DNA from: an uncultured Acetobacteraceae bacterium
GTDB taxonomy: Bacteria > Pseudomonadota > Alphaproteobacteria > Sphingomonadales > Sphingomonadaceae
Direction of reading: 5' to 3'
Assembly: GCA_964658485.1 (NCBI GenBank)
Contig: CAZZYX010000006.1
Location: forward strand, 419 to 64,418
Length of the DNA stretch: 64,000 nt
Below, piece by piece: positions 41,406-63,469 of this stretch. The position numbers and the translations under genes were made by a program. The notes under the pieces are model-generated. The model saw nothing but the letters and a program-made list of their open reading frames with translations. It made no database searches and was not told the DNA's origin. Each line of letters begins with the position of its first letter. Position 1 is the stretch's first letter.

Positions 41406-41407
41406 GC

Positions 41408-50454: not shown

Positions 50455-50466
50455 TGGATTATACCA
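50455..50466. promoter_or_regulatory. HutC/GntR-type operator-like palindrome, copy 1 (TGGATTATACCA)
   Basis: One of four copies of TGGnnTATACCA. This one overlaps the stop codon of the GntR gene. Confidence 0.4.
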
Positions 50467-51193
50467 CGTTGAGATCGACGCGCACGCGGATGGCGTCATG
50501 CCGCCAATATTCCTGGTCGTATTCAACTACGCGCCCGGCGGAGTCGAAGCTGGTGCGCACCACCAACAGGCCGGGCGTGCCCGACTTGACGCCTAGCGCC
50601 TCGGCCTCTTCCCTAACTAGCGCGCAGGGGCGCATGTCGACGCTGTTGCGGGCGACGGTAATGCCATAATGGGTCGTCAGGATGTGCGTCAGCGAGCCAT
50701 CGAGCGAGTGGGACAGCAGGTCGGGCGCCAGCGCGGGATCGACGACGATCCGTTCGACCAGCACCGGGCGACCATCGATCAGGCGGCGGCGCCGGATGGT
50801 GTGCAGCATGGCGCCGGGTGCAACCCCGAAGATGGCTTCCACGGACGCTATTACCGACGCGCTTGCCTTCGACAGCGTTTCGGTCCCCGGTGTCCGTCCC
50901 TGCTCGGTGACATAGGCCATGAAACCGGCCCAGCGTGTTGGATCATAGGTGACGGCAGGCGGCGAGACATACCAGCCGCTGCGGTCGCGGCGGTAGATCA
51001 GCCCCTCCGCTTCCAGCTGGAACAATGCCTCGCGAATGGTGCCGCGTGCGGCGCCGGTCTCGGCCTGCAATTGCCGTTCCGACGGCAGCTTGGCGCCCGG
51101 CGGCTGTTTGCCGTTTTTAATATTGCGCGCGATCTGGTCGCGCAGAACGAGATATTGTGGGCCGACAGGCGCCGTTCCGGGTGTGCGGGTCAG
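50459..51193 (-). CDS. GntR-family transcriptional regulator, HutC/PhnF subfamily (wHTH + UTRA)
   Basis: UTRA domain in ORF 50459..51070. The conserved wHTH N-terminus (PQYLVLRDQIARNIKNGKQPPGAKLPSERQLQAETGAARGTIREAL) extends upstream of the ORF-track TTG. The only possible start in the open frame is CTG 51193, which overlaps the upstream TGA. Confidence 0.75.
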   Translation of the reverse strand: MTRTPGTAPVGPQYLVLRDQIARNIKNGKQPPGAKLPSERQLQAETGAARGTIREALFQLEAEGLIYRRDRSGWYVSPPAVTYDPTRWAGFMAYVTEQGRTPGTETLSKASASVIASVEAIFGVAPGAMLHTIRRRRLIDGRPVLVERIVVDPALAPDLLSHSLDGSLTHILTTHYGITVARNSVDMRPCALVREEAEALGVKSGTPGLLVVRTSFDSAGRVVEYDQEYWRHDAIRVRVDLNVV

Positions 51194-51774
51194 GACAGGG
51201 GCTCGGTCTCGATGTGCATCCGATCACTCTGCCGCAAAACCAGCGATTCCAGCAATGGCCGGTAGCTTTCGAGATCCGGCACCTGCCAGTCCCGACGCTT
51301 GCCAAGATCGTCGTAACGGCGCAGCCGAAGCGCATCCTCCGCCCCGGGATTTGCGATGAAATGCGCCATTTCCTGCGAGCTATGTGGGCCGCCTTGAAGC
51401 GACAGGCTAAGCTCCGACGCGGGGCTGAGCGCTGCGTGATAATCCGGCTTGGCTGCGCATAGATAGCGCTTGGCTTCGACGTGCAACCGCACCGGTTCGG
51501 TCACTGCGGGCGGGAAATAAAGCGCGAGATAGGCGGCGCCGGACGCTTCGTGCCCGGCGTCGATACCCTGCTCGGCAGCATCCCCGGCGTCGTCGAAAAA
51601 ATGTCCTAGGTCATGCAGCAGGGCAGCGGCGATCAGCGCTTCGGGCGCTTCATCAAGCATGGCGAGATGCGCCGACTGCAGGATGTGCTGCATCTGGGTG
51701 ACTTCTTCGCCATAGTGAACGAGGCCGAATGCATTGAGAGTAGAGAAGATTCTATCAACTGTAGTAGACTTCAT
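51190..51774 (-). CDS. PhnZ-like HD-domain (mixed-valent diiron) oxygenase family protein
   Basis: ATG at 51774 gives 194 aa. ..YGEEVTQMQHILQSAHLA.., ..AALLHDLGH.., ..HEASGAAYL.., ..HVEAKRYL.. and ..SLQGGP.. align by eye with the PhnZ/TmpB-type phosphonate-cleaving HD oxygenases. Confidence 0.7.
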   Translation of the reverse strand: MKSTTVDRIFSTLNAFGLVHYGEEVTQMQHILQSAHLAMLDEAPEALIAAALLHDLGHFFDDAGDAAEQGIDAGHEASGAAYLALYFPPAVTEPVRLHVEAKRYLCAAKPDYHAALSPASELSLSLQGGPHSSQEMAHFIANPGAEDALRLRRYDDLGKRRDWQVPDLESYRPLLESLVLRQSDRMHIETEPLS

Positions 51775-51875
51775 GACTGTATTGTCGCCCCGCGTGGATG
51801 CTCCTGGGGCCGAAACGGATAGCTGCAAAGCGCCGCAGTCCGACCTGCTAGGATGTCGCCAATCTGTATTCAAGG

Positions 51876-51887
51876 TGGACTATACCA
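51876..51887. promoter_or_regulatory. HutC/GntR-type operator-like palindrome, copy 2 (TGGACTATACCA)
   Basis: Lies in the 174-bp divergent region between the PhnZ-like/GntR operon and the first PLC gene. Confidence 0.5.
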
Positions 51888-51948
51888 GTATGATGACTAA
51901 CGCACGACATGAAATGCCTTGGCGCTTGCCAAACGTGACGCCGATGAA

Positions 51949-54057
51949 ATGAACGGTGACCGACGGGATTTCCTGCGGCTGGCCGGCGTGGGATCGGCGA
52001 TGGCCATGTCCGGTCTCATCGATCGTGCGCTGGCGATCCCTGCCGCCCGCACGACCGGCTCGATCATGGATGTCGAGCACATCGTTATTCACATGCAGGA
52101 AAATCGGTCGTTCGACCATTATTTCGGCATGCTCAACGGCGTCCGTGGCTTTGGCGATCCTCGACCGTTGCGGCTGCCGGGCGGGCGAACGGTGTGGTCG
52201 CAGCCCTCGCAGCAGCATCCGGACGGCTATGTCATGCCCTACCACGGCGACGCGAAAACGACGCGATCGTTCCTCGTCGATGGCGCCGACCAGTCGCATG
52301 TCGAGAATATGGAAATCTTTAATCACGGGCGCTTCGATCGCTGGGGCCATAAGCCGGAGCTGCACAACCGGATGCTGCATTATGGCGCGGGCGACCTGCC
52401 CTTCTACTACGCGCTCGCCGACGCTTTTACCGTTTGTGACGCCTATCATTGCTCGACGATGACGCAGACTTATCCCAACCGGATGCACCTGTTTACCGGC
52501 TGCAACGGCGGCGGCACGGTCGGCGGCGACCCGCAGATGCAGAACTACGGCGAAGACGAGACGCCCAGCGCGGACATGGCGACGGACAAGCCGATCGATC
52601 CCGGCGCTTACGGTTGGACGACCTATGCCGAGCGGCTGCAGGCGGCGGGGATCGACTGGAAGGTCTACCAGGAATACGACAATTTCGGTGATAATCTGTT
52701 GTCGGTATTCCCGCCGTTCCGGCCTTGCGCAAAGGACAGCGAGCTTTATCGCCGGGGCCGATCCTGGGTCAGCGAGCATGCGCAGGGCCAAGACCGCGCC
52801 CGATCGGATGGCGAGCAACTCGTCGCAGCCTTCCGCCACGACATCGAGCGCGGACAACTGCCGCAGGTCAGCTGGATCGTGACCGCTGCGGACTTGTCGG
52901 AGCATCCGCAGGCCGAACCCGCCAAGGGCGAGCATGTGACGGCCAAGCTGATCGAGGCGTTGATCGACAATCCCGAGGTATTCGCGAAGACGGTCTTCAT
53001 CCTCAACTATGACGAAGCCGGCGGCTTTTACGATCATATGCCGCCGCCGGTGCCGCCGGTCGGCCGATACCACGGCCGCAGCACCGTTCCGCTTGATGGC
53101 GAAACCAAGGATTATCGCGGCTCGGGCAAAGCTGGCAACGAGCAGCACCCGATCGGTCTGGGGATGCGGACGCCAACGGTAATCGTATCGCCGTGGAGCC
53201 GTGGGGGTTATGTCTGCTCGGAGGTGTTCGACCATACCTCGGTGCTGCAATTCGTGGAGAAGCGCTTTGGCGTGCGTGAACCGAACATCAGCCCATGGCG
53301 GCGCTCAGTATGCGGCGACTTGACGTCCGTGTTCGATTTCACTGACGGACAGCCGATGATCGCACGGTCGCTGCCCGGCACCGACGACTTTGCCGAGCGG
53401 GTGGCGCAGTCGACTGCCGGAACCGCTAACGCCATTCCCGCGCAGCAGTCGCCGACGACGCAGATGTCCGGCCAGCGCGCGCACCGACCGCTGCCTTATC
53501 GGATTATCGCCGATAGCCATGTCGACACGGATGGGCGCCTGGTCATTGCCATGTCCATCAAGGGTGAGGCGGGCGTGGTGCTGACCGTGCATGACAATCA
53601 CGATCGGATCGAGCCGCGCCATTACACCATTGGCGCTGGCGACCGGATCGAAGATGCCTGGGACGCGGATGGCGACAGGTTCGATCTCACTTTGCGCGGC
53701 CCTAACGGCTTCTGGCGGCGGTTCGCCTACGGCGCGGGAGCAGACCGCGAGGTGCGACTGATCGATCGTCCGGATATCGACGCCATCGAGCTTCGGCTTG
53801 AAAATCGCAGCCCCGCGCCGCTGACCTTCACCATCGTGCTGGACGATGCCTATCCCGCCCTTGCGCGAAGGCGCGAAGTGACGGTGGCGCCCGGCAGGAC
53901 CGGGTCCGATCTGTGGCGATTGTCGGCAAGCGACAACTGGTACGACCTGACGATTACCGCCGGATCGCAAGACGAAGCATCGTGGCAATATGCCGGCAAG
54001 CTGGAGAATGGCCGGCCCGGTCGGACCGATCCTGCTATCGGAACGATGCGGGTCTAG
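51949..54057 (+). CDS. Phosphocholine-specific (non-haemolytic type) phospholipase C / acid phosphatase family, Tat-exported
   Basis: Tat leader MNGDRRDFLRLAGVGSAMAMSG. ..IHMQENRSFDHYFGMLNGVRGFGD.. phosphoesterase motif. About 700 aa with a duplicated C-terminal domain. Confidence 0.9.
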   Translation: MNGDRRDFLRLAGVGSAMAMSGLIDRALAIPAARTTGSIMDVEHIVIHMQENRSFDHYFGMLNGVRGFGDPRPLRLPGGRTVWSQPSQQHPDGYVMPYHGDAKTTRSFLVDGADQSHVENMEIFNHGRFDRWGHKPELHNRMLHYGAGDLPFYYALADAFTVCDAYHCSTMTQTYPNRMHLFTGCNGGGTVGGDPQMQNYGEDETPSADMATDKPIDPGAYGWTTYAERLQAAGIDWKVYQEYDNFGDNLLSVFPPFRPCAKDSELYRRGRSWVSEHAQGQDRARSDGEQLVAAFRHDIERGQLPQVSWIVTAADLSEHPQAEPAKGEHVTAKLIEALIDNPEVFAKTVFILNYDEAGGFYDHMPPPVPPVGRYHGRSTVPLDGETKDYRGSGKAGNEQHPIGLGMRTPTVIVSPWSRGGYVCSEVFDHTSVLQFVEKRFGVREPNISPWRRSVCGDLTSVFDFTDGQPMIARSLPGTDDFAERVAQSTAGTANAIPAQQSPTTQMSGQRAHRPLPYRIIADSHVDTDGRLVIAMSIKGEAGVVLTVHDNHDRIEPRHYTIGAGDRIEDAWDADGDRFDLTLRGPNGFWRRFAYGAGADREVRLIDRPDIDAIELRLENRSPAPLTFTIVLDDAYPALARRREVTVAPGRTGSDLWRLSASDNWYDLTITAGSQDEASWQYAGKLENGRPGRTDPAIGTMRV

Positions 54058-56135
54058 AGCATCGCGTCCAGCCGGAGTGGGCCCGGTCCGCCAGCGGCGG
54101 GATCGGAATAGGATGGCTCGCCATTTTCGACATGGCCTGCCATTCGCCAGCCCTGGCCTCCGGCCATGAACTGCCGGTCATACCAGCCGTGGCTATCCGT
54201 CAGGTTCAGGGCGATGCCGCGCGCTTCTCCGCCTGCCAGCACGATCACATCGGGAGCGGCGCCGTAGGCCCGGTCGGTCATGGCGATGGACTGGCGGGTC
54301 GCGGTGAGATTCTCGACGCGCAACGAGGAATGGCCGTCCGCGATGGAAACCGAGAAGATATCGCTTCTCCCAGTCAGGCGCCGATGGAAGCCGTTGGGGC
54401 CATGGACGAAAATGTCCGTGGCCCCAACGGAGACAGGCAGCGGGTGAGCAAGTTGTTTTCCTGCCGCTACCGTATACCGCGCCGATACTTCGTCGAGGCG
54501 ATTGACGTCGTAGACAAGGAAGACCGCCGCTCGCTCAGCCGAATGGTTGGCAAACCACAAAGCGTGGTTGGTGCCCGCAACCCGCAACCGGGCGTCCAGT
54601 TTATAAGGCGTGGCCCGCCGGCGTCGCAGGCCGGTTTCCTGCACCGGGGCGATACCCTGATCCGGGAGGGGTGGCTGGATTTCCACGAGCTTGGCCGCAT
54701 GCTTGGAGAGGGCAGCGGTGGCCGGCAGTGCGGCCAGGAAATCGAGCGTATCGGGCGCACTGAAATCGAAACAGGATGTCAGATCACCGCATACGGCTCG
54801 TCGCCAGGCGCTGATATTCGGCTCATGGACGCCGAAGCGGGCTTCGAGGAAGCGCAGGATGCTGGTGTGGTCGAACACCTCGGACGCGACATGCCCGCCC
54901 CTGCTCCAGGGCGATATCACATACATCGGCACCCGCATGCCAAGCCCGTAGGGCCGGTCCAGATACACCGCGTCTGCGGCCGATTGGGAATGGACGTGAT
55001 ACTCGTCGTCGGCTGGAATGCTGGTCGCGCCGACCATGCGTCCCGCCACGCGTGCCGGCGGAGCGGGCGGTGGCACATGGTCGAACAACCCGTCGTTCTC
55101 GTCGAAATTGACCAGCAGTACTGCGCGCGCCCACACCTCCGGATTAGCGGTGAGCGCATCGAGCACTCGCGCCACATAGTCCGCGCCCTGCAGCGGGCTG
55201 GAGGCACTAGGATGCTCCGATTGGGCGGCAGGGGCGATGATCCATGACACCTCTGGCAGTCGCCTGGCCGTCACGTCCTGCCGCAGATCGTCGAGCGAGC
55301 GGGTCGTCATCGTACGGCGCGAAAGCGGTGTCGCTGCCTCCGACTGGCGATAGCGCTGGAACCCGACCAGCGGATTGTCGGTGAAGTTGTCCGCCATGTC
55401 CTGATAGATCTGAAAACCGACGCCGGCGGTCATCAGGCGTTCCGGGTAGGTCGTCCAGCGATAGCCGCCATGGTGCCGTGGATCGGCGGCCTGGCTGTCG
55501 TAGCCGTTGTCGATGGCGGGGCCGTTGCCCTTTGCCTGCGGATCATGCGTGCCAGTCCAGATGTAGAGCCGGTTGGGATTGGTGCACAGGTGCATCGCGC
55601 TGTGATAGGCGTCGCACAGGGTAAACGCCTCGGCGAGGCCATACTGGAACGGCAGATCCTCGCGGGTGAAATGCGCCATCGCGTGATTGTGCTTGGCTCG
55701 CGGCCATGCGCCCATCCGTCCGTTGTCCCAAGCCGCCTGGCTGTCGACGAAGCCATGGGGCGTGCCGAGCGGGCGATAGAGGCGGAAGTCCACGGAGGTA
55801 TCGAGCCGGAACGGGGTAATCAACGCCGGCTCAGCTCCCGGATGCTCGTTCGGCTGGACTAGCACGGTGCGATCCAGCGCGTTCGGTAGCGGCGGGGCGG
55901 GGATGGCGAAGCGGTCGCCATAGCCCCTCACCCCGCGCATCGTGCCGAAGTAATGGTCGAACGAGCGGTTCTCCTGAGTGAGGATGACGACATGGCCGAC
56001 ATCCTGCAACGTGCCCGTCCGACGATCGGCGGCAATCTCCAGCGCGCGGGCAATGGCGGGTGTAAACGTGCCCGCCACGCCCCCCGTCGCCATCAAGGCA
56101 CGGATGAAGCTGCGACGATCCTGCATCATCACCAT
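54054..56135 (-). CDS. Phosphocholine-specific phospholipase C paralogue, Tat-exported
   Basis: Tat leader MQDRRSFIRALMATGG and ..ILTQENRSFDHYFGTMRGVRGYGD.. Same architecture as the convergent neighbour. Confidence 0.9.
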   Translation of the reverse strand: MVMMQDRRSFIRALMATGGVAGTFTPAIARALEIAADRRTGTLQDVGHVVILTQENRSFDHYFGTMRGVRGYGDRFAIPAPPLPNALDRTVLVQPNEHPGAEPALITPFRLDTSVDFRLYRPLGTPHGFVDSQAAWDNGRMGAWPRAKHNHAMAHFTREDLPFQYGLAEAFTLCDAYHSAMHLCTNPNRLYIWTGTHDPQAKGNGPAIDNGYDSQAADPRHHGGYRWTTYPERLMTAGVGFQIYQDMADNFTDNPLVGFQRYRQSEAATPLSRRTMTTRSLDDLRQDVTARRLPEVSWIIAPAAQSEHPSASSPLQGADYVARVLDALTANPEVWARAVLLVNFDENDGLFDHVPPPAPPARVAGRMVGATSIPADDEYHVHSQSAADAVYLDRPYGLGMRVPMYVISPWSRGGHVASEVFDHTSILRFLEARFGVHEPNISAWRRAVCGDLTSCFDFSAPDTLDFLAALPATAALSKHAAKLVEIQPPLPDQGIAPVQETGLRRRRATPYKLDARLRVAGTNHALWFANHSAERAAVFLVYDVNRLDEVSARYTVAAGKQLAHPLPVSVGATDIFVHGPNGFHRRLTGRSDIFSVSIADGHSSLRVENLTATRQSIAMTDRAYGAAPDVIVLAGGEARGIALNLTDSHGWYDRQFMAGGQGWRMAGHVENGEPSYSDPAAGGPGPLRLDAML

Positions 56136-56204: not shown

Positions 56205-56216
56205 TGGTCTATACCA
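56205..56216. promoter_or_regulatory. HutC/GntR-type operator-like palindrome, copy 3 (TGGTCTATACCA)
   Basis: Lies in the 245-bp divergent region between PLC-2 and the TonB-dependent receptor. 10 of 12 positions are self-complementary. Confidence 0.5.
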
Positions 56217-56350
56217 TTGATATGACAATCAGGGGACGCTGAAGGTGCAACTTTCTAATCCGTTTTTGAATGTCGCAGAGAGTGATCAAAATCGTCGCGG
56301 GTTGGCTCAGCCTGTCACAAAGATGTAGCCGCCCCCTGCTTAGAGCCAAC

Positions 56351-56362
56351 TGGTTCATACCA
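56351..56362. promoter_or_regulatory. HutC/GntR-type operator-like palindrome, copy 4 (TGGTTCATACCA)
   Basis: Lies 19 nt upstream of the TonB-receptor ATG at 56381. Confidence 0.4.
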
Positions 56363-56380: not shown

Positions 56381-59212
56381 ATGACATTACAATATTCTGT
56401 TCGGACCATCTGCCCGAACGTCAGGAGCTTCTTGCTGGCCACGGTCGCGGCGATCGTCGGCGTCAATCCCGGCGTTGCGTTCGCGCAGCCAGCAACCGGC
56501 GAGGACGTTACCGCAGAGCGGTATTCGGGCGATAAGCCCGCGCCGAGTAGCTCGGACGGGGCGATCGTCGTGACCGGCTACCGAATGTCGCTGGGTAAAG
56601 CGCGCGCCATCAAGAAGGACTCGGTTATCGAGAAAGACGTGATCGTCGCTGAAGATATCGCGAAATTCCCTGAACTGAACCTCGCCGAATCGCTGCAGCG
56701 CCTGCCGGGCATACAGATCACTCGCGAAGCAGGCGAAGGCCGGCGTATTTCGTTGCGTGGTCTCGGCCCGGATTTCTCCCGCGTGCAGCTCAACGGCATG
56801 GAAGTGCTCGGCAATGTCGACTCGGCGGAAGACAGCCGGGGCCAGCGCACCCGTGACCGCGCGTTCGACTTCAACATCTTCGCCTCGGAACTGTTTTCCA
56901 AAGTGGAGGTGGAAAAGACCTTCGAGGCGGCCCAGAACGAGGGCGGCATGGCCGGCACGGTCGGCCTGTTCACCGGCAAACCGTTCGATTACAAAACCGG
57001 TACAACCGGCGCGATCTCGGGCAAGCTGGGCAGCAACCAGTATACCAAGGATGCGCAACCGCGCGTCGCCGCACAGTTCAGCCAGAATTGGGGCAATAAT
57101 TTTGGCGTGCTGGTCTCGGTCGCATATAGCAAGCGCAAGACTACCGAGCAGGGTCACGATACGTACAACTATGACCAGTTGAGCCAGTCAGATGCGAAGT
57201 CACTGGTCGACAGCGGCCTGAACATTTCCCATCTGACCGCCGCCCAGCAAGCCAAGTTCCTGTCCGGCGACCTTTTGTTCGCCGACGGCAACCGCATCTC
57301 CTCGTTCAATTCGACACAGGAGCGCCTGGGCATAACCGGCGCGGTGCAGTGGAAACCGGCGAACAATCTGCTGCTGACGCTCGACCTGTTGCATGGCCAG
57401 TACACCACCCATCGCGAAGAGTATCATCTGGCTACCCGACCAATCGCGAGCGGCACGAATTCCTTCGCATTCGACGGCCCGGCGGGGACTCCATGGCCGG
57501 CTGCCTTCCAGACCGCATCCACCATCAATGACCTGCGGTGGGACGCCAACAATTACGTCACCAAAACCGACGTGACCGGGACGACTTTCGGTAGTGAAAA
57601 TCGCCGGTCGCTGAACAAGAACAACTTCAACCAAGCGGCGCTGACGGCCAAATGGGATATGACGGACAAGCTCTCGATCGACGGCCATGGCGGCTATGAA
57701 AAGTCGACGTACAAGACGCCTTACGACGACAAGTTCTACATGCGCGCCAAGGGCAACCAGATCGCCGATTACGGCACGGACGGCAAGTCGGCCAATTTCT
57801 CGTATCCGGGCTTCAATGCCACCGACCCGACCAATTACACGATGGACGATTTCTACTACCGCGCCTTCAATAATCAGTCACAGTTGCAGGAAGGTGTGCT
57901 GAACGCCCACTACAAGCTGTCCGACGCGCTGACACTGCGCGCCGGAGGAGCCTATCACCGCTTTTCTCAAGCCGGCGAGGACCTGTTCTATGACGGCGGC
58001 GTCAATGGCACTAACGGAGAGGCGCGAGGCACTTCGGTCACCGGCATCACCGACGTATTCAGCAACAGCTTCGGTTCGTGGCTGGTCGGCGATTACCCCG
58101 CAGGCTTTGCGAAATACCATGAATACCACCGGCTCGGGCCAAAGTCCGACGGAACGGGCGGCGCGATCCAGGATATCGAGAACGTCTACAACACCACGGA
58201 ACGGACTTTTTCCGAATACGTCCAGGTGGATTGGGACAGCCACCTGTTCGGCTTGCGCTTTCGCGGCAATGTCGGCGCGCGCGGCTATCAGACCAAAACC
58301 CATAGTAGCGGGTGGATCCAGGGCGACAGCTATGCCTATCTCGGCACGACCAATGTCGAAGGCAGCTATTCGGGCGTGCTGCCGGCGCTGAATACCGTGC
58401 TGGAAGTAACGCCGGATCTGCTGGTGCGCTTCGCCGCCTCGCAGAATCTCAACCGCCCAAGCCTGGATTCGATCGCAGCCAAGGGTTCGGCGACCCAGGA
58501 CGATTCCGGCGCGATCAGCGTGTCTCGCGGCAATCCGGCGCTCAAGCCGTTCAAGGATACCACGCTGGATTTTGCGGTGGAGTATTATTTCGGCAAGATC
58601 GGCCTGCTTTCGGGCAGCGTGTTCCACAAATGGATCAAGGATTTTATCGGTTCGGAGAGCCTGGAAAACGTTCCGTTCAGCCAGACGGGCGTCCCGTTCC
58701 AGACCATTCCTGGCGCAACGGCCAATACCATCGTCAAGGAGTTCGACCAGCCGATCAACGTCGCGGGCACCAAGCCGTTGACCGGTGTCGAAATAGCGGC
58801 GCAGGCGCAGTTCTCGTTCCTGCCGAAGCCGTTCAACAATCTGGGCATGACGACGAACTTCACGTATGTGGATGCCGACGCGACGCTGACCGGGTTCTCC
58901 AAGACCAGCTATAATGCGACACTCTATTACGAAACGAAACGTTGGGGTATGCGGGGTTCGTTGAGCCACCGCTCCAGCTACTATACCGAGCGTAGCACCG
59001 ATCCGATCAGCGCCGGCACGCGCGGGTTCGAGGGGTCCACCTATGTCGACGCCGCAGCCTTCATCAACGTCTCTGACAAATTCCAGCTAACAGCCAATGC
59101 GATCAATCTGACCAATCAGAAGGACACGCAATTCTGGTCTCAGTATCATTACCTCTACAACCAGACGCAAAGCGGCACGACCTACTCCGCCGGGTTCAGT
59201 TACAAGTTCTGA
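56381..59212 (+). CDS. TonB-dependent receptor
   Basis: ATG at 56381 gives signal peptide ..VNPGVAFAQ. TonB box AIVVTGYR, plug motifs (..LPGIQI.., ..RGLG..), and a C-terminal ..YSAGFSYKF. Confidence 0.9.
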   Translation: MTLQYSVRTICPNVRSFLLATVAAIVGVNPGVAFAQPATGEDVTAERYSGDKPAPSSSDGAIVVTGYRMSLGKARAIKKDSVIEKDVIVAEDIAKFPELNLAESLQRLPGIQITREAGEGRRISLRGLGPDFSRVQLNGMEVLGNVDSAEDSRGQRTRDRAFDFNIFASELFSKVEVEKTFEAAQNEGGMAGTVGLFTGKPFDYKTGTTGAISGKLGSNQYTKDAQPRVAAQFSQNWGNNFGVLVSVAYSKRKTTEQGHDTYNYDQLSQSDAKSLVDSGLNISHLTAAQQAKFLSGDLLFADGNRISSFNSTQERLGITGAVQWKPANNLLLTLDLLHGQYTTHREEYHLATRPIASGTNSFAFDGPAGTPWPAAFQTASTINDLRWDANNYVTKTDVTGTTFGSENRRSLNKNNFNQAALTAKWDMTDKLSIDGHGGYEKSTYKTPYDDKFYMRAKGNQIADYGTDGKSANFSYPGFNATDPTNYTMDDFYYRAFNNQSQLQEGVLNAHYKLSDALTLRAGGAYHRFSQAGEDLFYDGGVNGTNGEARGTSVTGITDVFSNSFGSWLVGDYPAGFAKYHEYHRLGPKSDGTGGAIQDIENVYNTTERTFSEYVQVDWDSHLFGLRFRGNVGARGYQTKTHSSGWIQGDSYAYLGTTNVEGSYSGVLPALNTVLEVTPDLLVRFAASQNLNRPSLDSIAAKGSATQDDSGAISVSRGNPALKPFKDTTLDFAVEYYFGKIGLLSGSVFHKWIKDFIGSESLENVPFSQTGVPFQTIPGATANTIVKEFDQPINVAGTKPLTGVEIAAQAQFSFLPKPFNNLGMTTNFTYVDADATLTGFSKTSYNATLYYETKRWGMRGSLSHRSSYYTERSTDPISAGTRGFEGSTYVDAAAFINVSDKFQLTANAINLTNQKDTQFWSQYHYLYNQTQSGTTYSAGFSYKF

Positions 59213-59232: not shown

Positions 59233-59270
59233 GGGCACCTTCTCTTCGGAGCGGGTGCTCTCTTTCGGTT
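59233..59270 (+). terminator. Candidate intrinsic terminator after the TonB-receptor gene
   Basis: GGGCACC-tt-CTC TTCG GAG-cg-GGTGCTC (TTCG tetraloop with a 2-nt internal mismatch), followed by TCTTTCGGTT. Confidence 0.4.
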
Positions 59271-59280: not shown

Positions 59281-59919
59281 ATGATCGTTTCCCATCGCCA
59301 CCGTTTCATTTTCGCCGCAGTGCCCAAGACGGGCACCCATTCCATGCGGCAGGCGCTGCGCGAGCAATTGGGCGACGAGGACATCGAGCAGGTCGGGCTG
59401 TTCGTGAACAAGCGCTTTCCGTGGGCCGATCTGGCGGCGATCCAGCACGGGCACCTGTCACTGCGGCAGGTGCGTCCGTATCTCGGCGAGGACGCCTTCA
59501 ACGGCTATTTCAAATTTGCCTTTGTGCGTAATCCGTTCGACCGGTTCGTCTCGTACTGCGCCTTCATGCTGCGCGGCGGCATGGATTTCCAGCAGCGGCC
59601 CCAGGACATGATGCGCCACTTTCTGTTCGAGGCGCCGCCCGAACACCATATCCTGTTCCAGCCGCAGGCATCCCTGCTGGTGGGCGACGATGGCCAAACC
59701 CTGCTGGTCGATGGCATAGGCCATGTCGAGGATATGCAGGGCTCGTACGATGCGCTCTGCGAGCGGATCGGCATCCCCTCGCGCTCGCTTAACCAAATCA
59801 ACGGCAGCAGTCATGGCGATTATCGACGGTATTATGACCAAGTTCTGATCGACGGCGTCGCCGAGCGCTACGCTCAGGATCTAAAGCTGTTCGGCTATGA
59901 TTTCGAAGGTATGAGATGA
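59281..59919 (+). CDS. Sulfotransferase family protein (family-2-like, PAPS-dependent)
   Basis: 5'-PSB-like FAAVPKTGTHSMRQAL at the N-terminus and 3'-PB-like FVRNPFDRFVSY. Confidence 0.8.
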   Translation: MIVSHRHRFIFAAVPKTGTHSMRQALREQLGDEDIEQVGLFVNKRFPWADLAAIQHGHLSLRQVRPYLGEDAFNGYFKFAFVRNPFDRFVSYCAFMLRGGMDFQQRPQDMMRHFLFEAPPEHHILFQPQASLLVGDDGQTLLVDGIGHVEDMQGSYDALCERIGIPSRSLNQINGSSHGDYRRYYDQVLIDGVAERYAQDLKLFGYDFEGMR

Positions 59920-60545
59920 CCCTCGCCATGGTCCGCCCCGCAGCTAACCCGCGCAAGACCACTTCGGTACGCAAGCTCGGCACAGTCGATATCGCCTTGC
60001 TGAAGGTAGCCGTGAGGGCTGTTCCCGATAGCGTGTGGGACGCGGAGAATGCCGCCAAGCCGAACCGGTTCGCGGTGCTGGATGAGACATGCCACATCGT
60101 TTTGCGCTTTATCGACAGCCCGCGTGACTGGCGCCATTCGCATGATCGCGCAGCCTGGCCGCAATGGCGCGGTGTGCTGGAGCCGGTGCTGGCGCAGGCG
60201 GTTCGCGGCTATGGCTATGCGCGCGGCCTGTTTCCGAGAGTGATGCTGGCGAAATTGCCTCCCGGTGGCGTGATCCACCCGCACATTGATGCTAATCCGG
60301 CGGCGAAGTGGCCGCACAAGATTCATGTGCCGGTGACGACTAACGGCGGGGTAATATCCTGCTTCGGCGGCGGCGAACATCATTTCCCGCCCGGCGAGGC
60401 AGTGGAGGTCGACAACCTCGGCCCGCACTGGGTGCGCAACAGCGGCGAGACCGACCGTATCCATTTGATCTTCGAATATTATGATGCCGATCAGCCGGAC
60501 CCGAGCTGGCTGGAGCCGTTCCTGCTTGCCGGGGCAACGCGGTGA
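59916..60545 (+). CDS. Aspartyl/asparaginyl beta-hydroxylase-domain (cupin, Fe/2OG) protein
   Basis: ..GGVIHPHIDAN..WPHKIHVPV.. and ..AVEVDNLGPHWVRNSGETDRIHLIFEY give HxD...H ligands. Its ATG overlaps the upstream stop (ATGA). Confidence 0.8.
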   Translation: MTLAMVRPAANPRKTTSVRKLGTVDIALLKVAVRAVPDSVWDAENAAKPNRFAVLDETCHIVLRFIDSPRDWRHSHDRAAWPQWRGVLEPVLAQAVRGYGYARGLFPRVMLAKLPPGGVIHPHIDANPAAKWPHKIHVPVTTNGGVISCFGGGEHHFPPGEAVEVDNLGPHWVRNSGETDRIHLIFEYYDADQPDPSWLEPFLLAGATR

Positions 60546-62464
60546 ACGTCTCCGCCGTTACGCATGATGCGCGCGACGCGCTGTTGCGGGAAGCAATATC
60601 CCTGCGCTCCCGCCGGCGCGTCTCGGAAGCGTTGGCGACACTGGCGCGGCTGGAGGCGCTGCATCCCCGGTTCAGTCGGCTGTTTCAGGAGCGCGGACAC
60701 TGCCATGTCCAGCTTGGGAATGCGCCGGCTGCGATCGACGCGTTGCGAGAGGCGGTCGCTCTCAACCCGACGCTGCCGGCAAGCTGGGATATGCTGGAAC
60801 AGCTTTACCGGATGCAGGGCGATACGGCCCTTGCGGCTACGGCGGCTGAGCATCTGGCAACGCTGGGACAGCTTCCACGGGAAATCGTCGTAGCGAACAG
60901 CCTGTTCGTCGACGGCGACCTGTCACCGGCGGAAGATGTCATCCGGGACTACCTGAAGGTGGATGCCGGAAATGTTGGCGCGCTGCGCCTGTTGGCACGG
61001 ATTTGCCAGGAGCGCGACGCACTCGGCGAGGCAGAGGCGTTGCTGGCATCTGTACTTGAGCGCGCGCCCGACTACGATGCGGCGCGCTTCGATTATGCTG
61101 CGGTATTGTTGTTGCAGCAAAGGCACCTGCAGGCGCGGCAGCAGGCGGCGCATTTGCTGCAATGCGATCCTGAAAATCGCGCATACCTGAAGCAATATTG
61201 CGCTGCATGTATCGGCCTGGGCGACCATGAACCGGTAATCGCCCTGTGCGACAAGCTGCTGGCGGCCCAATCCCAAACGGGGCCGGAAGTGGCCGACTTG
61301 CGGCTGTGGCGAGCGAATGCGCTGAAGATCACGGGCAGGCCGCAGGAAGCTATTGTCGATTACCGCGCGTCACTGAGAGCGCGCCCTGAATATGGCGTGG
61401 CTTGGTTCAGCCTGGCGAACCTCAAGACCTATCGCTTCGCCGATGACGAGATCGCGCGCATGCGTGTCGCAGAACGTGACCCTGCCGCTCAAGACATGGG
61501 CCGCAGCTACCTGTGTTTCGCACTGGGCAAGGCGCTGGAGGATCATGGCGATTACGCATCCTCGTGGCAATATTACGAGCGCGGCAATGCGGTTCGGCGT
61601 CTGGCCAGCCGCTATCGCCCTGAAGTCGCAGAAGCCTGCGTGCGTCGCTTAAAGCAGGTTTTTACCGCCAAATTCTTCGCCACCCGCAGCGGCTGGGGCG
61701 TGGACGATCCAGCACCGATCTTCATCCTGGGGTTGCCCCGGTCAGGCTCGACTTTGATCGAGCAGATATTGGCGTCGCATTCTTGCGTGGAGGGTACGCA
61801 GGAACTTACCGAAATTACCCGCTGTGCAGCCGCGCTTTGCGGAGCCGATCCGGATTGCGGCTTGCCGCTGCACCCTGAGGCGTTGCAGAACCTGACTGCA
61901 GCGCAAGCACGGACGCTCGGGACGCGCTTTTTAGCCGAGACCACTACCTATCGCCGGCTGGGCAGGCGGTTCTTCATCGACAAGATGCCGAACAATTTCT
62001 GGCATATCGGGCTGATCCAGCTGATACTACCCCGCTCGATCATCATCGATGTCCGACGCGAACCACTCGCCTGCTGCTTCAGCAACTTCAAGCAATTGTT
62101 CGGCACCAACAACCAGGAATTCACGTATGGCATTGACGACATTGGCCGCCACTACCGCGCCTACCTCGATCTTATGCGCCATTGGGACGACGTGTTGCCG
62201 AGGCGGGTGCTGAGGGTACATTACGAGGACGTGGTGGAGGATCTGGAAGGCAGCGTGCGGCGTCTGCTGGAGCATTGCGGCCTGCCCTTCGAGCCTGCCT
62301 GCCTGACCTTTCACGAGACCCGGCGTAGCGTGCGTACACCCAGTTCCGAGCAGGTGCGCAAGCCCATCGGCCGGGATGGTCTCGCGCAATGGCGGCACTA
62401 TGCGCCATGGTTGGCGCCATTGCGCGACGCGCTAGGCGATGCAATGACCCGCTACAGGACCTGA
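60542..62464 (+). CDS. TPR-repeat-containing sulfotransferase family protein
   Basis: About 350 aa of TPR-like repeats, then IFILGLPRSGSTLIEQILASH (5'-PSB, TPST-like PRSG[ST]T) and IIIDVRREPLACCFSNF (3'-PB). Its GTG overlaps the upstream stop (GTGA). Confidence 0.85.
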   Translation: MNVSAVTHDARDALLREAISLRSRRRVSEALATLARLEALHPRFSRLFQERGHCHVQLGNAPAAIDALREAVALNPTLPASWDMLEQLYRMQGDTALAATAAEHLATLGQLPREIVVANSLFVDGDLSPAEDVIRDYLKVDAGNVGALRLLARICQERDALGEAEALLASVLERAPDYDAARFDYAAVLLLQQRHLQARQQAAHLLQCDPENRAYLKQYCAACIGLGDHEPVIALCDKLLAAQSQTGPEVADLRLWRANALKITGRPQEAIVDYRASLRARPEYGVAWFSLANLKTYRFADDEIARMRVAERDPAAQDMGRSYLCFALGKALEDHGDYASSWQYYERGNAVRRLASRYRPEVAEACVRRLKQVFTAKFFATRSGWGVDDPAPIFILGLPRSGSTLIEQILASHSCVEGTQELTEITRCAAALCGADPDCGLPLHPEALQNLTAAQARTLGTRFLAETTTYRRLGRRFFIDKMPNNFWHIGLIQLILPRSIIIDVRREPLACCFSNFKQLFGTNNQEFTYGIDDIGRHYRAYLDLMRHWDDVLPRRVLRVHYEDVVEDLEGSVRRLLEHCGLPFEPACLTFHETRRSVRTPSSEQVRKPIGRDGLAQWRHYAPWLAPLRDALGDAMTRYRT

Positions 62465-62467
62465 CCC

Positions 62468-63415
62468 ATGCGGCTGACGCAACCGTTTTTTCAACTCCCC
62501 GTGTTCTTCGATGTGGCGCACCTGGAGGCTGAGGTTGCAGCGTTGCCGGGCAGGGCATGGGTGCCGCACCCGGACAGCGTCCCCGGCAACAGTGCAACTC
62601 GGTTGATCAGCGCCGGGGGCGGCGAGACCGATAGCAACCATGGGCAGATGCTGCAGACGCCCTGGCTCGCGACGATGCCCTACCTGCGCCAGGTCCTCGC
62701 CGGCTTTGGCGTGGTGTGGAGCCGCTCGCGGCTGATGGGCCTTGCGCCGGGAGCGCGCGTTCCCGAACATGCGGATATCAATTACCACTGGCATTCGCGA
62801 GTGCGGTTGCATATTCCGATCGTCACCTCGCCGGAAGTCCGGTTCCACTGCGACGGACAATCCGTACACATGGCTGCGGGTGAAGCCTGGATCTTCGACA
62901 ACTGGCGCCGGCACCATGTGGATAACAACGGTAGCGCAACGCGCATCCATCTGGTTGCGGACACCTCCGGTACGGCGGCCTTCTGGCAGTTCGCTTGCGG
63001 GCAGGCGCCGCCTCGGCGTGAATGGCGGACGGTATCCTGGAGCCCCCAGAGCAGTCCGCAACTCCTCACCGAGAACGACCAGCGCTCGCCGGTAATGCCA
63101 GCCGCTGAAGTGCAGTTGCTGGTTGACGATTTGCGCGCGGAACTGGTGGTTGCCAGCGATACCGCTGAGGTCAGGACGCGCGCTGCACGGTTTGGCACGC
63201 TGCTGCAAAGCTTTGTGCACGATTGGCGCCAGCTCTGCGCGCTGCATGGCGTCAGTGGGCATGCTCGATCTGACTTCCTGCGCCTCGCCAGCGCCTTGCG
63301 CGAAGGCGCAGAGCCGCTTGCAGACGGGCTGGTAATGCGTACCAACGCTGTCGGCGCGTTGTTGGTGCTCGAAAAGCGCGTGCTTCAGCATCTGGTGGCA
63401 AACGGATTAAGCTAG
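62468..63415 (+). CDS. Aspartyl/asparaginyl beta-hydroxylase-like cupin protein with ~130-aa C-terminal extension
   Basis: ..RVPEHADINYHWHSRVRLHIPIVT.. and ..GEAWIFDNWRRHHVDNNGSATRIHLVAD give HxD...H ligands. It starts 3 nt after the preceding stop. Confidence 0.7.
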   Translation: MRLTQPFFQLPVFFDVAHLEAEVAALPGRAWVPHPDSVPGNSATRLISAGGGETDSNHGQMLQTPWLATMPYLRQVLAGFGVVWSRSRLMGLAPGARVPEHADINYHWHSRVRLHIPIVTSPEVRFHCDGQSVHMAAGEAWIFDNWRRHHVDNNGSATRIHLVADTSGTAAFWQFACGQAPPRREWRTVSWSPQSSPQLLTENDQRSPVMPAAEVQLLVDDLRAELVVASDTAEVRTRAARFGTLLQSFVHDWRQLCALHGVSGHARSDFLRLASALREGAEPLADGLVMRTNAVGALLVLEKRVLQHLVANGLS

Positions 63416-63469
63416 ACTAGCCTGATGGAAGCAAGCCGATAGAGTGCGAGAGTACCTGCGAGAATTGTC

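What the first reader, a model, noticed from the sequence alone, without database searches (positions are those of the whole stretch)
59281..63415. Tightly coupled sulfotransferase / beta-hydroxylase / TPR-sulfotransferase / beta-hydroxylase operon behind a TonB receptor: candidate uncharacterised sulfation-plus-hydroxylation system
**Seen in sequence.** Four same-strand genes are joined by ATGA (59916-59919), by GTGA (60542-60545) and by a 3-nt gap (62465-62467), which indicates co-translation. Both sulfotransferases keep PAPS-binding motifs: PKTGTHS with RNPFDRFVS, and PRSGSTL with RREPLACCFS. The second one resembles the PRSGTT loop of protein-tyrosine sulfotransferases and carries about 350 aa of TPR repeats, a protein or peptide recognition scaffold. 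Both cupins keep an HxD...H iron triad of the Asp/Asn beta-hydroxylase (AspH/LpxO/OlsC) family. None of the four has a signal peptide. No PAPS-synthesis gene and no obvious precursor peptide are adjacent.

**Inference.** Pairing two sulfuryl-transfer enzymes with two Fe/2OG hydroxylases is the enzymology of eukaryote-like Tyr sulfation and Asp/Asn hydroxylation. Alternatively it could produce hydroxylated or sulfated phosphorus-free lipids, since LpxO/OlsC-type hydroxylases act on lipid acyl chains. I know of no characterised bacterial pathway with this four-gene composition. Its position immediately after a TonB receptor, next to phospholipases C, suggests a link to envelope remodelling or to modification of an imported or exported ligand.
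Basis: partly seen in the sequence, partly recalled or inferred. Interest (0 to 1): 0.7.

Follow-up and report, generated by a model that had tools for sequence, protein, structure and literature searches.

The report
Receptor-linked hydroxylation and sulfation gene cassette
An outer-membrane import receptor gene is followed by two sulfotransferases and two iron hydroxylases in a five-gene cassette kept intact in over 60 bacterial species, apparently switched on by phosphorus shortage; nobody has studied it, and it may be a new way of chemically decorating a surface protein or a scavenged nutrient.

Summary
Four coupled ORFs sit at the stated coordinates, and the ATGA overlap, GTGA overlap and 3-nt gap are verified. 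Pfam assigns Sulfotransfer_2, Asp_Arg_Hydrox, TPR+Sulfotransfer_3 and Asp_Arg_Hydrox, and the cofactor motifs are invariant in orthologues.

The TonB-dependent receptor (TBDR) is part of the unit: TBDR-A-B-C-D is collinear in 65 of 72 evaluable species loci, spanning Caulobacterales, Sphingomonadales, Rhizomicrobium-like bacteria and, rearranged, Steroidobacteraceae.

Upstream of the receptor lie a conserved Pho-box-like repeat and a GntR-type operator. Operator-like copies also flank the phospholipase C genes and a PhnZ-family HD oxygenase/PhnR-like pair. I therefore predict control by phosphorus starvation and a phosphonate-type inducer.

In seven loci, hydroxylase D is fused to a third sulfotransferase domain, which argues that hydroxylation and sulfation act on one acceptor. 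Distant TPR-sulfotransferase relatives again sit beside TBDRs plus small AspH-like genes, or beside autotransporter, porin, flagellin and other exported-protein genes.

Best reading: a cytoplasmic hydroxylate-then-O-sulfate module tied to the receptor. The favoured acceptor, at about 0.4, is an exported protein such as the receptor precursor. A small organophosphonate/amine or a phosphorus-free lipid remain rivals. I found no literature on it. Function is unproven.

The parts
50459..51070 (-). PhnR-like GntR/UTRA regulator, candidate repressor of the regulon
   Evidence: NCBIfam TIGR03337 phnR, 214.6 bits, E 1.5e-63, below the 296.75 cut-off. The same family (GntR+UTRA) is found in 31 related loci.
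51190..51873 (-). PhnZ/TmpB-family HD-domain oxygenase (oxidative C-P bond cleavage type)
   Evidence: TIGR03276 Phn-HD, 204.3 bits (cut-off 214.6); TmpB 168 bits; PhnZ1 162 bits. The family is present in 24 related loci and lies directly between C and the receptor in Steroidobacteraceae locus L072.
51876..51887 (.). Operator-like site TGGACTATACCA (one mismatch) between the HD gene and PLC1
   Evidence: position confirmed.
51919..54057 (+). Phosphocholine-type phospholipase C with a twin-arginine (RRDFLRL) leader
   Evidence: TIGR03396 PC_PLC, 731 bits, above the cut-off; Pfam Phosphoesterase + PLipase_C_C.
54054..56135 (-). Second phospholipase C, divergent from the receptor gene
   Evidence: TIGR03396, 772 bits. 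A PLC gene lies within the fetched flanks in 49 of 82 related loci.
56205..56216 (.). GntR-type operator-like palindrome TGGTCTATACCA
   Evidence: Pattern TGGTNYANACCA: 3 matches in the window against 0.09 expected.
56312..56329 (+). Pho-box-like direct repeat CTGTCAC-AAAG-ATGTAGC, about 68 nt before the receptor ATG
   Evidence: Unique in the window (expected 0.03). TGTCAC-N5-TGT(C/A)(G/T)(C/T) is found at about the same position in 42 of 73 loci.
56351..56362 (.). GntR-type operator TGGTTCATACCA, 30 nt before the receptor ATG
   Evidence: Strict TGGT-N4-ACCA pattern at this position in 52 of 73 loci. Most of the rest carry degenerate copies at the same position.
56381..59212 (+). TonB-dependent receptor, first gene of the cassette (the ORF as listed opens at 56270)
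   Evidence: TIGR01782, 574 bits; Plug + barrel. Orthologue found in 75 of the 82 loci (54-75% identity); it is upstream of C and on the same strand in 71 of the 72 evaluable ones. The signal peptide and TonB box align from M38.
59233..59260 (+). Stem-loop followed by a U-rich tract between the receptor gene and A; possible partial terminator
   Evidence: dG -27.9 kcal/mol, z -1.9. Weak evidence; conservation not tested.
59281..59919 (+). A: small soluble sulfotransferase (Sulfotransfer_2 type)
   Evidence: Pfam 55.1 bits. K16, R83, R88 and S91 are invariant. 70-84% identity in 78 loci.
59916..60545 (+). B: small AspH-family Fe(II)/2-oxoglutarate hydroxylase
   Evidence: Pfam 33.0 bits. Its cupin core is 33% identical to D. 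Absent in 5 loci.
60542..62464 (+). C: TPR superhelix (aa 1-380) plus Sulfotransfer_3 domain (aa 390-640)
   Evidence: Pfam. AlphaFold model pLDDT 80.5; the best structural matches are the OGT and SPINDLY TPR domains. The catalytic domain aligns with TPST1/2 and the CurM/OLS sulfotransferases. At least 7992 homologues.
62468..63415 (+). D: AspH-family hydroxylase with a conserved helical C-terminal region; fused to a third sulfotransferase in some lineages
   Evidence: Pfam 55.0 bits. Best solved relative is L-proline cis-4-hydroxylase, E 1.5e-5. D::Sulfotransfer_3 fusions of 593-618 aa in six loci, plus one cut short by the contig end (L072, 466 aa).

Best explanation
The unit is a five-gene operon: TonB-dependent receptor, then A, B, C and D. 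It belongs to a phosphorus-scavenging regulon.

**Predicted regulation.** PhoB would activate it through the Pho-box-like repeat. A PhnR-like GntR regulator would repress it at the TGGT-N4-ACCA operator. It would therefore be expressed when phosphate is scarce and a phosphonate- or headgroup-type inducer is present.

**Predicted chemistry.** The four enzymes are soluble and cytoplasmic.
- B and D use Fe(II), 2-oxoglutarate and O2 to install hydroxyl groups.
- A and C (plus a third sulfotransferase fused to D in some lineages) transfer sulfate from PAPS, probably onto those hydroxyls.
- The product would be a multiply hydroxylated, O-sulfated acceptor.

**What is shown.** Gene content, catalytic residues, co-inheritance, the hydroxylase-sulfotransferase fusion and the conserved regulatory motifs.

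**What is inferred.** The order of the reactions, the regulators and the acceptor.

**My committed guess for the acceptor.** It is a polypeptide, most likely the co-encoded receptor precursor (or another exported protein of the regulon). C's OGT-like TPR superhelix would capture it before export. I give the general hydroxylate-then-sulfate, receptor-coupled module about 0.75. I give the protein acceptor about 0.4.
For: **The cassette is one conserved unit**
- TBDR-A-B-C-D is collinear in 65 of 72 evaluable loci from four orders.
- Enzyme identities are 58-84% across orders.

**The enzymes look active**
- Catalytic and cofactor residues are invariant.
- R400/E421/K481/S601 of C are invariant even among 15 paralogues at 22-40% identity. 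They align with the TPST catalytic positions.

**Hydroxylation and sulfation are coupled**
- D is fused to a Sulfotransfer_3 domain in seven loci (L030, L032, L046, L049, L072, L075, L080). The same domain is a separate adjacent gene in L086, and a 41%-identical fusion occurs in Diaphorobacter.

**Regulation**
- The Pho-box-like repeat is present in 42 of 73 loci and the operator in 52 of 73.
- In the window both elements are far above chance.
- Operator-like copies lie at the HD/PLC1 and PLC2/receptor intergenic regions.

**The receptor is the constant partner across unrelated contexts**
- A second, roughly 670-aa TPR-sulfotransferase subfamily has a TBDR within 1-3 genes in 8 of 8 sampled loci, and a 185-200-aa AspH-like gene in 6 of 8.
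- Other paralogues sit beside TBDRs in Novosphingobium, Pseudoalteromonas, L042 and L085.
- Partnered receptors belong to at least three unrelated TBDR lineages.

**Pointers to a protein acceptor**
- Paralogues lie next to autotransporter genes, a porin (71), a flagellin (74) and a T1SS with a Ca-binding protein (73). A D::sulfotransferase fusion, which has no TPR domain, lies next to an IPTL-CTERM protein (97).
- One paralogue carries a SEC-C motif.
- The TPR superhelix resembles those of OGT and SPINDLY.
- The cassette has no scaffold-building enzyme, exporter, inner-membrane transporter or precursor peptide.
Against: - No experiment exists, and no sulfated bacterial outer-membrane protein is known to me.
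- Receptors cross the inner membrane unfolded via Sec, so cytoplasmic modification would need recognition of an unfolded precursor.
- The receptor's N-terminal linker is not conserved and carries no conserved acidic-Tyr motif.
- In the four B-less loci that could be aligned, no receptor column that is at least 95% conserved elsewhere has changed.
- D's nearest solved relative hydroxylates free proline, and C's catalytic domain scores slightly better against the small-molecule CurM/OLS sulfotransferases than against TPST.
- The second subfamily sits in loci that otherwise look like small-molecule uptake and catabolism: ABC importer, Rieske oxygenase, glutamine-synthetase-like genes.
- The regulators are inferred from motifs only.
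- No PAPS-synthesis gene was seen in the flanks.
- The sampled contexts are few and partly related by descent.
Confidence: 0.42

Rival explanations
1. **Small-molecule processing.** The receptor imports an organophosphonate or amino-alkyl compound, for example a headgroup released by the secreted phospholipases C. B and/or D hydroxylate it in the cytoplasm. They could act as stand-ins for PhnY*/TmpA to feed the PhnZ-family HD oxygenase. The sulfotransferases then sulfate the hydroxylated compound or a by-product, to activate, trap or detoxify it.
For: - The HD oxygenase and a PhnR-like regulator share the operator-like motif with the receptor promoter.
- No PhyH/TauD-type partner hydroxylase lies near the HD gene in the window or among the conserved neighbour families.
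- In Steroidobacteraceae locus L072 the HD gene lies between C and the receptor.
- Neighbours include PhnX, a TIGR03364 oxidase and DUF5690.
- D's best solved relative is a free-amino-acid hydroxylase.
- The second subfamily is embedded in ABC-importer / Rieske-oxygenase loci.
- L112 lies beside a protein with HAD-hydrolase and Aminotran_5 domains, which I read as a PhnX/PhnW-like fusion.
Against: - No known phosphonate or amine catabolic route uses sulfation.
- A 380-aa TPR superhelix is unusual for a small-molecule enzyme.
- The same TPR-sulfotransferase/receptor pairing occurs in an alpha-glucosidase/LacI locus and beside autotransporters, a porin and a flagellin, where no common small substrate is plausible.
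- The HD gene is within the flanks in only 24 loci.
Confidence: 0.25
2. **Phosphorus sparing.** Under phosphate starvation the enzymes build a phosphorus-free anionic envelope component, such as a hydroxylated, sulfated aminolipid, sphingolipid or surface glycan, to replace phosphate-bearing molecules. The receptor gene would merely be co-regulated.
For: - A Pho-box-like element lies upstream.
- AspH-family members LpxO and OlsC hydroxylate lipid acyl chains (established knowledge).
- Some TPR-sulfotransferase paralogues are translationally coupled to membrane FA_hydroxylase genes.
- The host taxa are sphingolipid producers (my own knowledge).
Against: - A-D have no membrane segment.
- D scores 19.3 bits against the 500-bit LpxO cut-off.
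- A substrate-type GntR operator, in addition to the Pho box, is typical of uptake or catabolic operons.
- The near-universal physical linkage to the receptor gene is left unexplained.
- No acyltransferase, glycosyltransferase or flippase is in the cassette.
Confidence: 0.13
3. **Ribosomal peptide tailoring.** The enzymes tailor a ribosomally made peptide (RiPP or RaxX-like signal) encoded elsewhere, and the receptor takes it up.
For: - Similarity to protein-tyrosine sulfotransferases.
- A table of co-occurring gene clusters in Pontixanthobacter lists sulfotransferase and aspartyl beta-hydroxylase entries at consecutive cluster numbers with lasso-peptide genes (PMC10040529).
Against: - There is no precursor gene, protease, cyclase or exporter in or next to the cassette in any of the 82 loci.
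- Intergenic gaps are 0-68 nt.
Confidence: 0.04

Closest known systems
Protein-tyrosine sulfotransferases (human TPST1/2; Xanthomonas RaxST acting on RaxX)
   Same: C's catalytic domain aligns over its whole length with TPST1/2. It keeps the PRSG(S/T)T loop. R400/E421/K481/S601 sit at the positions of TPST2 R78/E99/K158/S285 (residue roles recalled from the published structure).
   Different: - E-values are only 9e-4 to 3e-3, and the CurM/OLS polyketide sulfotransferases score slightly better.
- TPSTs and RaxST have no TPR domain.
- No peptide substrate is encoded nearby.
- A belongs to a different sulfotransferase family (Sulfotransfer_2).
TPR-transferase protein modifiers (OGT, SPINDLY; Caulobacter FlmG acting on flagellin)
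   Same: An N-terminal TPR superhelix is followed by a C-terminal group-transfer domain. The best structural matches of the C model are the OGT and SPY TPR domains.
   Different: The catalytic domain is a sulfotransferase, not a glycosyltransferase. A protein substrate is not shown. The FlmG parallel is from memory.
Hydroxylase/sulfotransferase tailoring pairs of natural-product pathways (CyrI/CyrJ of cylindrospermopsin; SxtDIOX/SxtSUL of saxitoxin)
   Same: An Fe/2OG hydroxylase creates the hydroxyl that a PAPS sulfotransferase then sulfates. Here that coupling is backed by D::sulfotransferase fusions.
   Different: Those pairs sit inside large biosynthetic clusters that build the scaffold. 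This cassette has no scaffold enzymes and is tied to an import receptor. The comparison is from memory.
Oxidative phosphonate catabolism: PhnY*/PhnZ and TmpA/TmpB
   Same: A PhnZ/TmpB-family HD oxygenase and a PhnR-like regulator are in the same predicted regulon. Fe/2OG hydroxylases are present.
   Different: B and D are AspH-family enzymes, not PhyH/TauD-family. They are not adjacent to the HD gene. Sulfotransferases have no role in the known pathways.
AspH / LpxO / OlsC beta-hydroxylases
   Same: Both B and D score above the Pfam PF05118 threshold and keep the HxD...H plus Arg residues.
   Different: - They have no membrane segments.
- The LpxO equivalog score is far below its cut-off.
- There is no EGF-type substrate.
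- D carries an extra conserved helical C-terminal region.
Cytoplasmic modification of outer-membrane autotransporters (TibC/AAH heptosyltransferases)
   Same: A cytoplasmic transferase gene lies next to the gene of the outer-membrane protein it modifies before export. Some TPR-sulfotransferase paralogues sit with GT8/GT9 genes beside autotransporter genes.
   Different: That modification is glycosylation, not sulfation or hydroxylation. It has been shown for autotransporters only. The comparison is from memory.

Membership tests
PAPS-dependent sulfotransferase superfamily (A: Sulfotransfer_2; C: Sulfotransfer_3) | Profile score above the curated threshold | tested here: met
   A scores 55.1 bits against a 22-bit threshold, but only aa 1-92 align. 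C scores 160.2 bits against 27 over the full profile.
PAPS-dependent sulfotransferase superfamily (A: Sulfotransfer_2; C: Sulfotransfer_3) | 5'-phosphosulfate loop (P-K/R-x-G-x-T) and 3'-phosphate motif (R...R..S) | tested here: met
   - A: PKTGTHS and RNPFDRFVS, with K16, R83, R88 and S91 invariant in 23 sequences.
- C: PRSGSTL and RREP..., with R400, G402, T404 and R506 invariant even among 15 distant paralogues.
PAPS-dependent sulfotransferase superfamily (A: Sulfotransfer_2; C: Sulfotransfer_3) | PAPS-dependent sulfuryl transfer | not testable with these tools
   Needs an enzyme assay. No PAPS-synthesis gene was recognised among the conserved neighbour families. A P-loop pattern scan found nothing but may have been too strict.
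Protein-tyrosine sulfotransferase (TPST/RaxST) | Catalytic Arg/Glu/Lys/Ser positions | tested here: met
   R400/E421/K481/S601 align with the TPST positions and are invariant in alignment A5. The residue roles are recalled from the TPST2 structure.
Protein-tyrosine sulfotransferase (TPST/RaxST) | Closest relatives are TPSTs rather than other sulfotransferases | tested here: inconclusive
   TPST1/2 give E 9e-4 to 3e-3. The CurM and OLS sulfotransferases give 3.7e-5 and 6.3e-5.
Protein-tyrosine sulfotransferase (TPST/RaxST) | A Tyr-containing acidic peptide or protein substrate | tested here: inconclusive
   No precursor ORF is in the cassette. The receptor's N-terminal linker carries no conserved motif. 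The rest of the receptor was not examined for sites.
Asp/Asn beta-hydroxylase family (PF05118) | Profile score above threshold, plus the HxD...H iron triad and the 2-oxoglutarate-binding Arg | tested here: met
   - B: 33.0 bits; D: 55.0 bits; threshold 22.6.
- B: H123/D125/H171/R181. D: H101/D103/H149/R159.
LpxO / OlsC lipid hydroxylases | Equivalog-level similarity and membrane anchoring | tested here: not met
   D scores 19.3 bits against a 500-bit cut-off and B gives no hit. Neither has a hydrophobic segment.
PhnY*/PhnZ-type oxidative phosphonate pathway | HD-domain oxygenase of the PhnZ/TmpB family | tested here: inconclusive
   ORF 51190-51873 scores 204.3 bits, just under the 214.6-bit cut-off of TIGR03276. 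The TmpB and PhnZ1 models score well below their cut-offs.
PhnY*/PhnZ-type oxidative phosphonate pathway | An adjacent PhyH/TauD-type Fe/2OG hydroxylase partner | tested here: not met
   None was found next to the HD gene or among the conserved neighbour families. B and D belong to another family and lie 8-10 kb away.
TonB-dependent uptake locus (receptor + regulator + processing enzymes) | A TBDR with plug and barrel, a linked regulator and a shared promoter region | tested here: met
   There is no inner-membrane transporter inside the cassette, although DUF5690 or MFS genes occur nearby in some loci.
TPR-transferase protein modifiers (OGT/SPY/FlmG type) | A TPR superhelix N-terminal to the catalytic domain | tested here: met
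   The model shows about 22 helices over aa 3-381 (read from the secondary-structure listing), and OGT and SPINDLY are the top structural matches.
TPR-transferase protein modifiers (OGT/SPY/FlmG type) | A protein substrate bound by the TPR domain | not testable with these tools
   Only indirect evidence exists: gene neighbourhoods rich in exported-protein genes.

The most novel reading that the evidence does not exclude
TPR-sulfotransferases, with their AspH-like hydroxylase partners, are a widespread and unrecognised bacterial machinery. It would hydroxylate and O-sulfate outer-membrane or secreted proteins in the cytoplasm before export. Targets would include TonB-dependent receptors, autotransporters, porins and flagellins. 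In this window it would decorate a phosphorus-starvation receptor, perhaps to shape its ligand-binding surface. That would make protein sulfation a common bacterial envelope modification rather than a single-case curiosity (RaxX).
Probability: 0.3. Interest if true: 0.92.

Novelty: new variant of a known kind. Interest (0 to 1): 0.74.

Why it matters
- **Scale of the unknown.** The enzyme families are familiar, but this receptor-coupled combination has no studied member.
- **If the acceptor is the receptor or another exported protein.** This would reveal a new class of bacterial protein modification. Sulfate is easily mistaken for phosphate in mass spectrometry. It would also change how TonB-dependent uptake is understood.
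- **If the acceptor is a small molecule.** It would add a sulfation step to phosphonate or phospholipid-headgroup scavenging in oligotrophic soil and freshwater bacteria.
- **Testability.** Either way the predicted Pho/PhnR control gives a simple condition under which to look: low phosphate plus a phosphonate.

Tried and rejected
- **Literature.** Nine full-text searches found nothing on this gene combination. The C. crescentus PhoB regulon supplement lists no sulfotransferase, which suggests, but does not show, that the model strain lacks the cassette.
- **Solved structures.**
  - Single-sequence and profile searches of A against solved structures gave no meaningful hit, and a single-sequence search of B gave none.
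  - The AlphaFold model of D failed (pLDDT 35), so D's C-terminal region stays unassigned.
- **Receptor as the target of B.** I looked for receptor alignment columns conserved in B-containing loci but changed in B-less loci. There were none.
- **Acidic Tyr motif.** I looked for a conserved one in the receptor's N-terminal linker. There is none.
- **D replacement in L019/L020.** The 249-aa protein that replaces D is unrelated to D and has no Pfam family.
- **LpxO/OlsC membership.** Rejected.
- **RiPP idea.** Set aside, because no locus has a precursor or maturation gene.
- **APS-kinase scan.** A P-loop motif scan of the window and all loci found nothing. It also missed an annotated cysC in L094, so I do not count it as evidence.
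- **Foldseek on C.** TPR proteins dominated the results, so they say little about the catalytic domain.

Full report
**1. Observation**

The ATGA overlap, the GTGA overlap and the 3-nt gap were read directly.

Pfam assignments:
- A: Sulfotransfer_2, N-terminal 92 residues only.
- B: Asp_Arg_Hydrox.
- C: TPR repeats plus Sulfotransfer_3.
- D: Asp_Arg_Hydrox, plus about 150 unassigned residues.

NCBIfam offers no specific name, and the LpxO model scores 19 bits against a cut-off of 500. All quoted motifs exist and are invariant in orthologue alignments. None of the four proteins has a hydrophobic segment. B and D share a paralogous cupin core (33% identity). A and C's catalytic domain are not detectably related.

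**2. The unit includes the receptor and is widely conserved**

C has at least 7992 homologues. The best are 75-81% identical and come from Caulobacter, Phenylobacterium, Sphingomonas, Sphingobium, Novosphingobium and Rhizomicrobium.

A scan of one genome per species returned 80 loci. Together with three loci from direct look-ups, the tally is:

| Arrangement | Loci (of 72 evaluable) |
|---|---|
| TBDR-A-B-C-D, collinear, same strand | 65 |
| Lacks B | 3 |
| Lacks B and D | 2 |
| Rearranged (Steroidobacteraceae) | 1 |
| C relative only | 1 |

- Identities across orders are 58-84% for the enzymes and 54-75% for the receptor.
- RefSeq annotation of an Asticcacaulis plasmid copy gives only generic names.
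- The gap between the receptor gene and A is 68 nt. It holds a stem-loop with a U-rich tail that could act as a partial terminator.

**3. Neighbourhood and predicted regulation**

Recurrent neighbours across the loci:
- Tat-signal phospholipases C
- a PhnZ/TmpB-family HD oxygenase
- a PhnR-like GntR regulator
- phosphonoacetaldehyde hydrolase PhnX
- a TIGR03364 FAD oxidase
- DUF5690
- PAP2, alkaline-phosphatase and histidine-phosphatase proteins

In the window:
- The HD oxygenase (51190-51873, 204 bits against a cut-off of 214.6) and the PhnR-like gene (50459-51070) lie just upstream of the PLC pair.
- Further upstream are a receptor/glycerophosphodiesterase pair and another receptor.

The PLC2-receptor intergenic region holds three conserved elements:
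- **Two operator-like sites**, matching the pattern TGGTNYANACCA, at 56205 and 56351. The pattern gives 3 matches in the window (one palindromic site counted on both strands) against 0.09 expected by chance.
- **One-mismatch copies** at 51876, between the HD gene and PLC1, and at 50455.
- **A Pho-box-like repeat**, CTGTCAC-N4-ATGTAGC, at 56312. It is unique in the window, with 0.03 expected.

Across loci:
- The operator lies about 30 nt before the receptor ATG in 52 of 73 loci, and most of the rest carry degenerate copies at the same position.
- The Pho-box-like repeat lies at about -68 in 42 of 73 loci.

I infer activation by PhoB and repression by the PhnR-like protein. Neither is shown.

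**4. Evidence that hydroxylation and sulfation are one process**

- In seven loci, D is fused to an additional Sulfotransfer_3 domain (593-618 aa; the L072 copy is cut by the contig end). These come from three Asticcacaulis genomes, one Caulobacter MAG, one MAG labelled 'uncultured Rhizobium sp.' and two Steroidobacteraceae genomes.
- The same domain is a separate gene after D's position in an Asticcacaulis plasmid.
- A 41%-identical D::sulfotransferase fusion occurs in Diaphorobacter.
- Other TPR-sulfotransferase paralogues are coupled to a different hydroxylase family, FA_hydroxylase.

These fusions argue that the hydroxylase and the sulfotransferase act on the same acceptor. The simplest chemistry is C-H hydroxylation followed by O-sulfation.

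**5. What the wider family says about the acceptor**

Sampled contexts of distant TPR-sulfotransferases (22-42% identical to C):

| Neighbouring gene | Organism or locus |
|---|---|
| TBDR on both sides, in an alpha-glucosidase/LacI locus | Novosphingobium |
| TBDR immediately upstream | two Pseudoalteromonas |
| TBDR adjacent | L042, L085 |
| Autotransporter, with GT8 or GT9 | Enterobacter, Azospirillum |
| Autotransporter | Thalassospira |
| Porin | Cereibacter |
| Flagellin | Paroceanicella |
| Type I secretion plus a Ca-binding protein | Sulfitobacter |
| No exported-protein gene adjacent | five contexts |

Separately, the Diaphorobacter D::sulfotransferase fusion, which has no TPR domain, lies divergent from an IPTL-CTERM exported-protein gene.

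A profile search reached a second subfamily of about 670 aa.
- All eight sampled loci carry a TBDR within 1-3 genes.
- Six of the eight carry a 185-200-aa AspH-like gene.
- They usually also carry a Pot/PhnS-type ABC importer and a Rieske oxygenase.
- One locus (L112) has three tandem TPR-rich genes after the TBDR, two of which have recorded sulfotransferase-domain hits, and one of these carries a SEC-C motif. Next to them lie DUF5690 and a protein with HAD-hydrolase and Aminotran_5 domains, which I read as a PhnX/PhnW-like fusion.

The partnered receptors fall into at least three unrelated TBDR lineages. So the constant partner is a receptor, or more broadly an exported protein, while the substrate context varies.

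Structural and sequence evidence on C:
- C's model (pLDDT 80.5) is a long TPR superhelix most like those of OGT and SPINDLY.
- Its catalytic domain aligns end to end with TPST1/2. R400/E421/K481/S601 sit at the TPST catalytic positions and are invariant among distant paralogues.
- The same domain scores slightly better against the small-molecule CurM and OLS sulfotransferases.

**6. Weighing the explanations**

The general claim is well supported, at about 0.75: a receptor-coupled, phosphorus-regulated module that hydroxylates and then sulfates.

For the acceptor I favour a protein, most likely the receptor precursor, at about 0.4.
- **For it:** the neighbourhood pattern, the TPR architecture, the TPST-like active site, and the absence of any scaffold, transporter or precursor gene.
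- **Against it:** there is no precedent. The B-loss test was negative. The receptor linker has no conserved motif. D's nearest solved relative is a free-proline hydroxylase. The second subfamily sits in loci that look catabolic.

Rival readings:
- The small-molecule reading gets about 0.25. It best explains the HD oxygenase, which lacks a canonical partner hydroxylase, but gives the sulfotransferases no known role.
- The phosphorus-sparing lipid or glycan reading gets about 0.13. It fits the Pho box, but not the soluble enzymes or the strict receptor linkage.
- A RiPP reading gets about 0.04.

**7. Comparison with the known, and novelty**

- The proteins are members of the sulfotransferase and AspH superfamilies. 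Those membership tests were met.
- They are not LpxO/OlsC (tested, not met).
- They are not demonstrably TPST (inconclusive).
- They are not a canonical PhnY*/PhnZ pair (partner test not met).

The system works most like hydroxylase/sulfotransferase tailoring pairs, joined to an OGT-style substrate-capture domain and a TonB-dependent uptake locus. I found no description of such a combination. I class it as a new variant of known kinds. There is a substantial chance, about 0.3, that it represents a new class of envelope-protein modification.

**8. Limits**

- All functional statements rest on sequence, synteny and motifs.
- The context samples are small and partly related by descent.
- PLSDB annotation is incomplete.
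- Regulator assignments are inferred.
- Models of A, B and D could not be obtained.

Noticed in passing
window 63450-63577 (-), and ORFs to 64000: An ALIL pseudoknot (Rfam RF01497, 51.7 bits) lies 35 nt after D's stop. I recall ALIL as the IS3-family frameshift element, so an insertion sequence probably bounds the cassette in this genome.
   Followed up: partly
window 40284-43906 (-): A TonB-dependent receptor gene (41408-43906) is followed by a glycerophosphodiester phosphodiesterase gene (40284-41405). With a further receptor at 46743-49382, an MFS gene at 44118-45338 and an FAD oxidoreductase at 45392-46756, the last 24 kb of the window looks like one phosphorus-scavenging island.
   Followed up: partly
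window 56270-56380: The mechanically listed receptor ORF starts at 56270. Orthologue alignment, a GGGGG Shine-Dalgarno-like run and the signal peptide all point to ATG 56381. The first 37 codons overlap the promoter elements.
   Followed up: yes
L112 1238-10915: A metagenome-assembled locus has a TBDR followed by three tandem TPR-rich genes, two with recorded sulfotransferase-domain hits. One of those carries a SEC-C motif. Next to them lie a DUF5690 fragment and a protein with HAD-hydrolase and Aminotran_5 domains, read here as a PhnX/PhnW-like fusion.
   Followed up: no
L019 9915-10664 and L020 9987-10736: In two related alphaproteobacterial MAGs, B is absent and D is replaced by an unrelated 249-aa Cys-containing protein with no Pfam family.
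   Followed up: partly
L105, L108, L109, L111 (second TPR-sulfotransferase subfamily): In L108, L109 and L111 an AstE/AspA-like deacylase gene ends a few bases before the TPR-sulfotransferase gene; L105 has an amidohydrolase gene there instead. In all four, the sulfotransferase converges on an operon of ABC importer, Rieske oxygenase, TBDR and a small AspH-like gene. In some of these loci extra Sulfotransfer_3, Lactamase_B and FA_hydroxylase genes lie nearby.
   Followed up: no
Asticcacaulis loci L030, L032, L039, L049, L068, L077, L079, upstream of the receptor gene: These loci have a DeoR-type regulator instead of the GntR type and lack the TGGT-N4-ACCA operator. They carry tandem TCTCACA-type direct repeats plus CTGTCACAAA, a different Pho-box-like promoter layout.
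   Followed up: partly
L094 (Ralstonia solanacearum megaplasmid) 8085-8639: A cysC (adenylyl-sulfate kinase) gene lies about 2 kb from a TPR-sulfotransferase paralogue.
   Followed up: no
window 39603-39691 (+) and 38556-39386 (-): A tRNA gene (58 bits) and an EipA (envelope integrity protein A) gene lie just upstream of the scavenging island. The tRNA could mark an island boundary.
   Followed up: no
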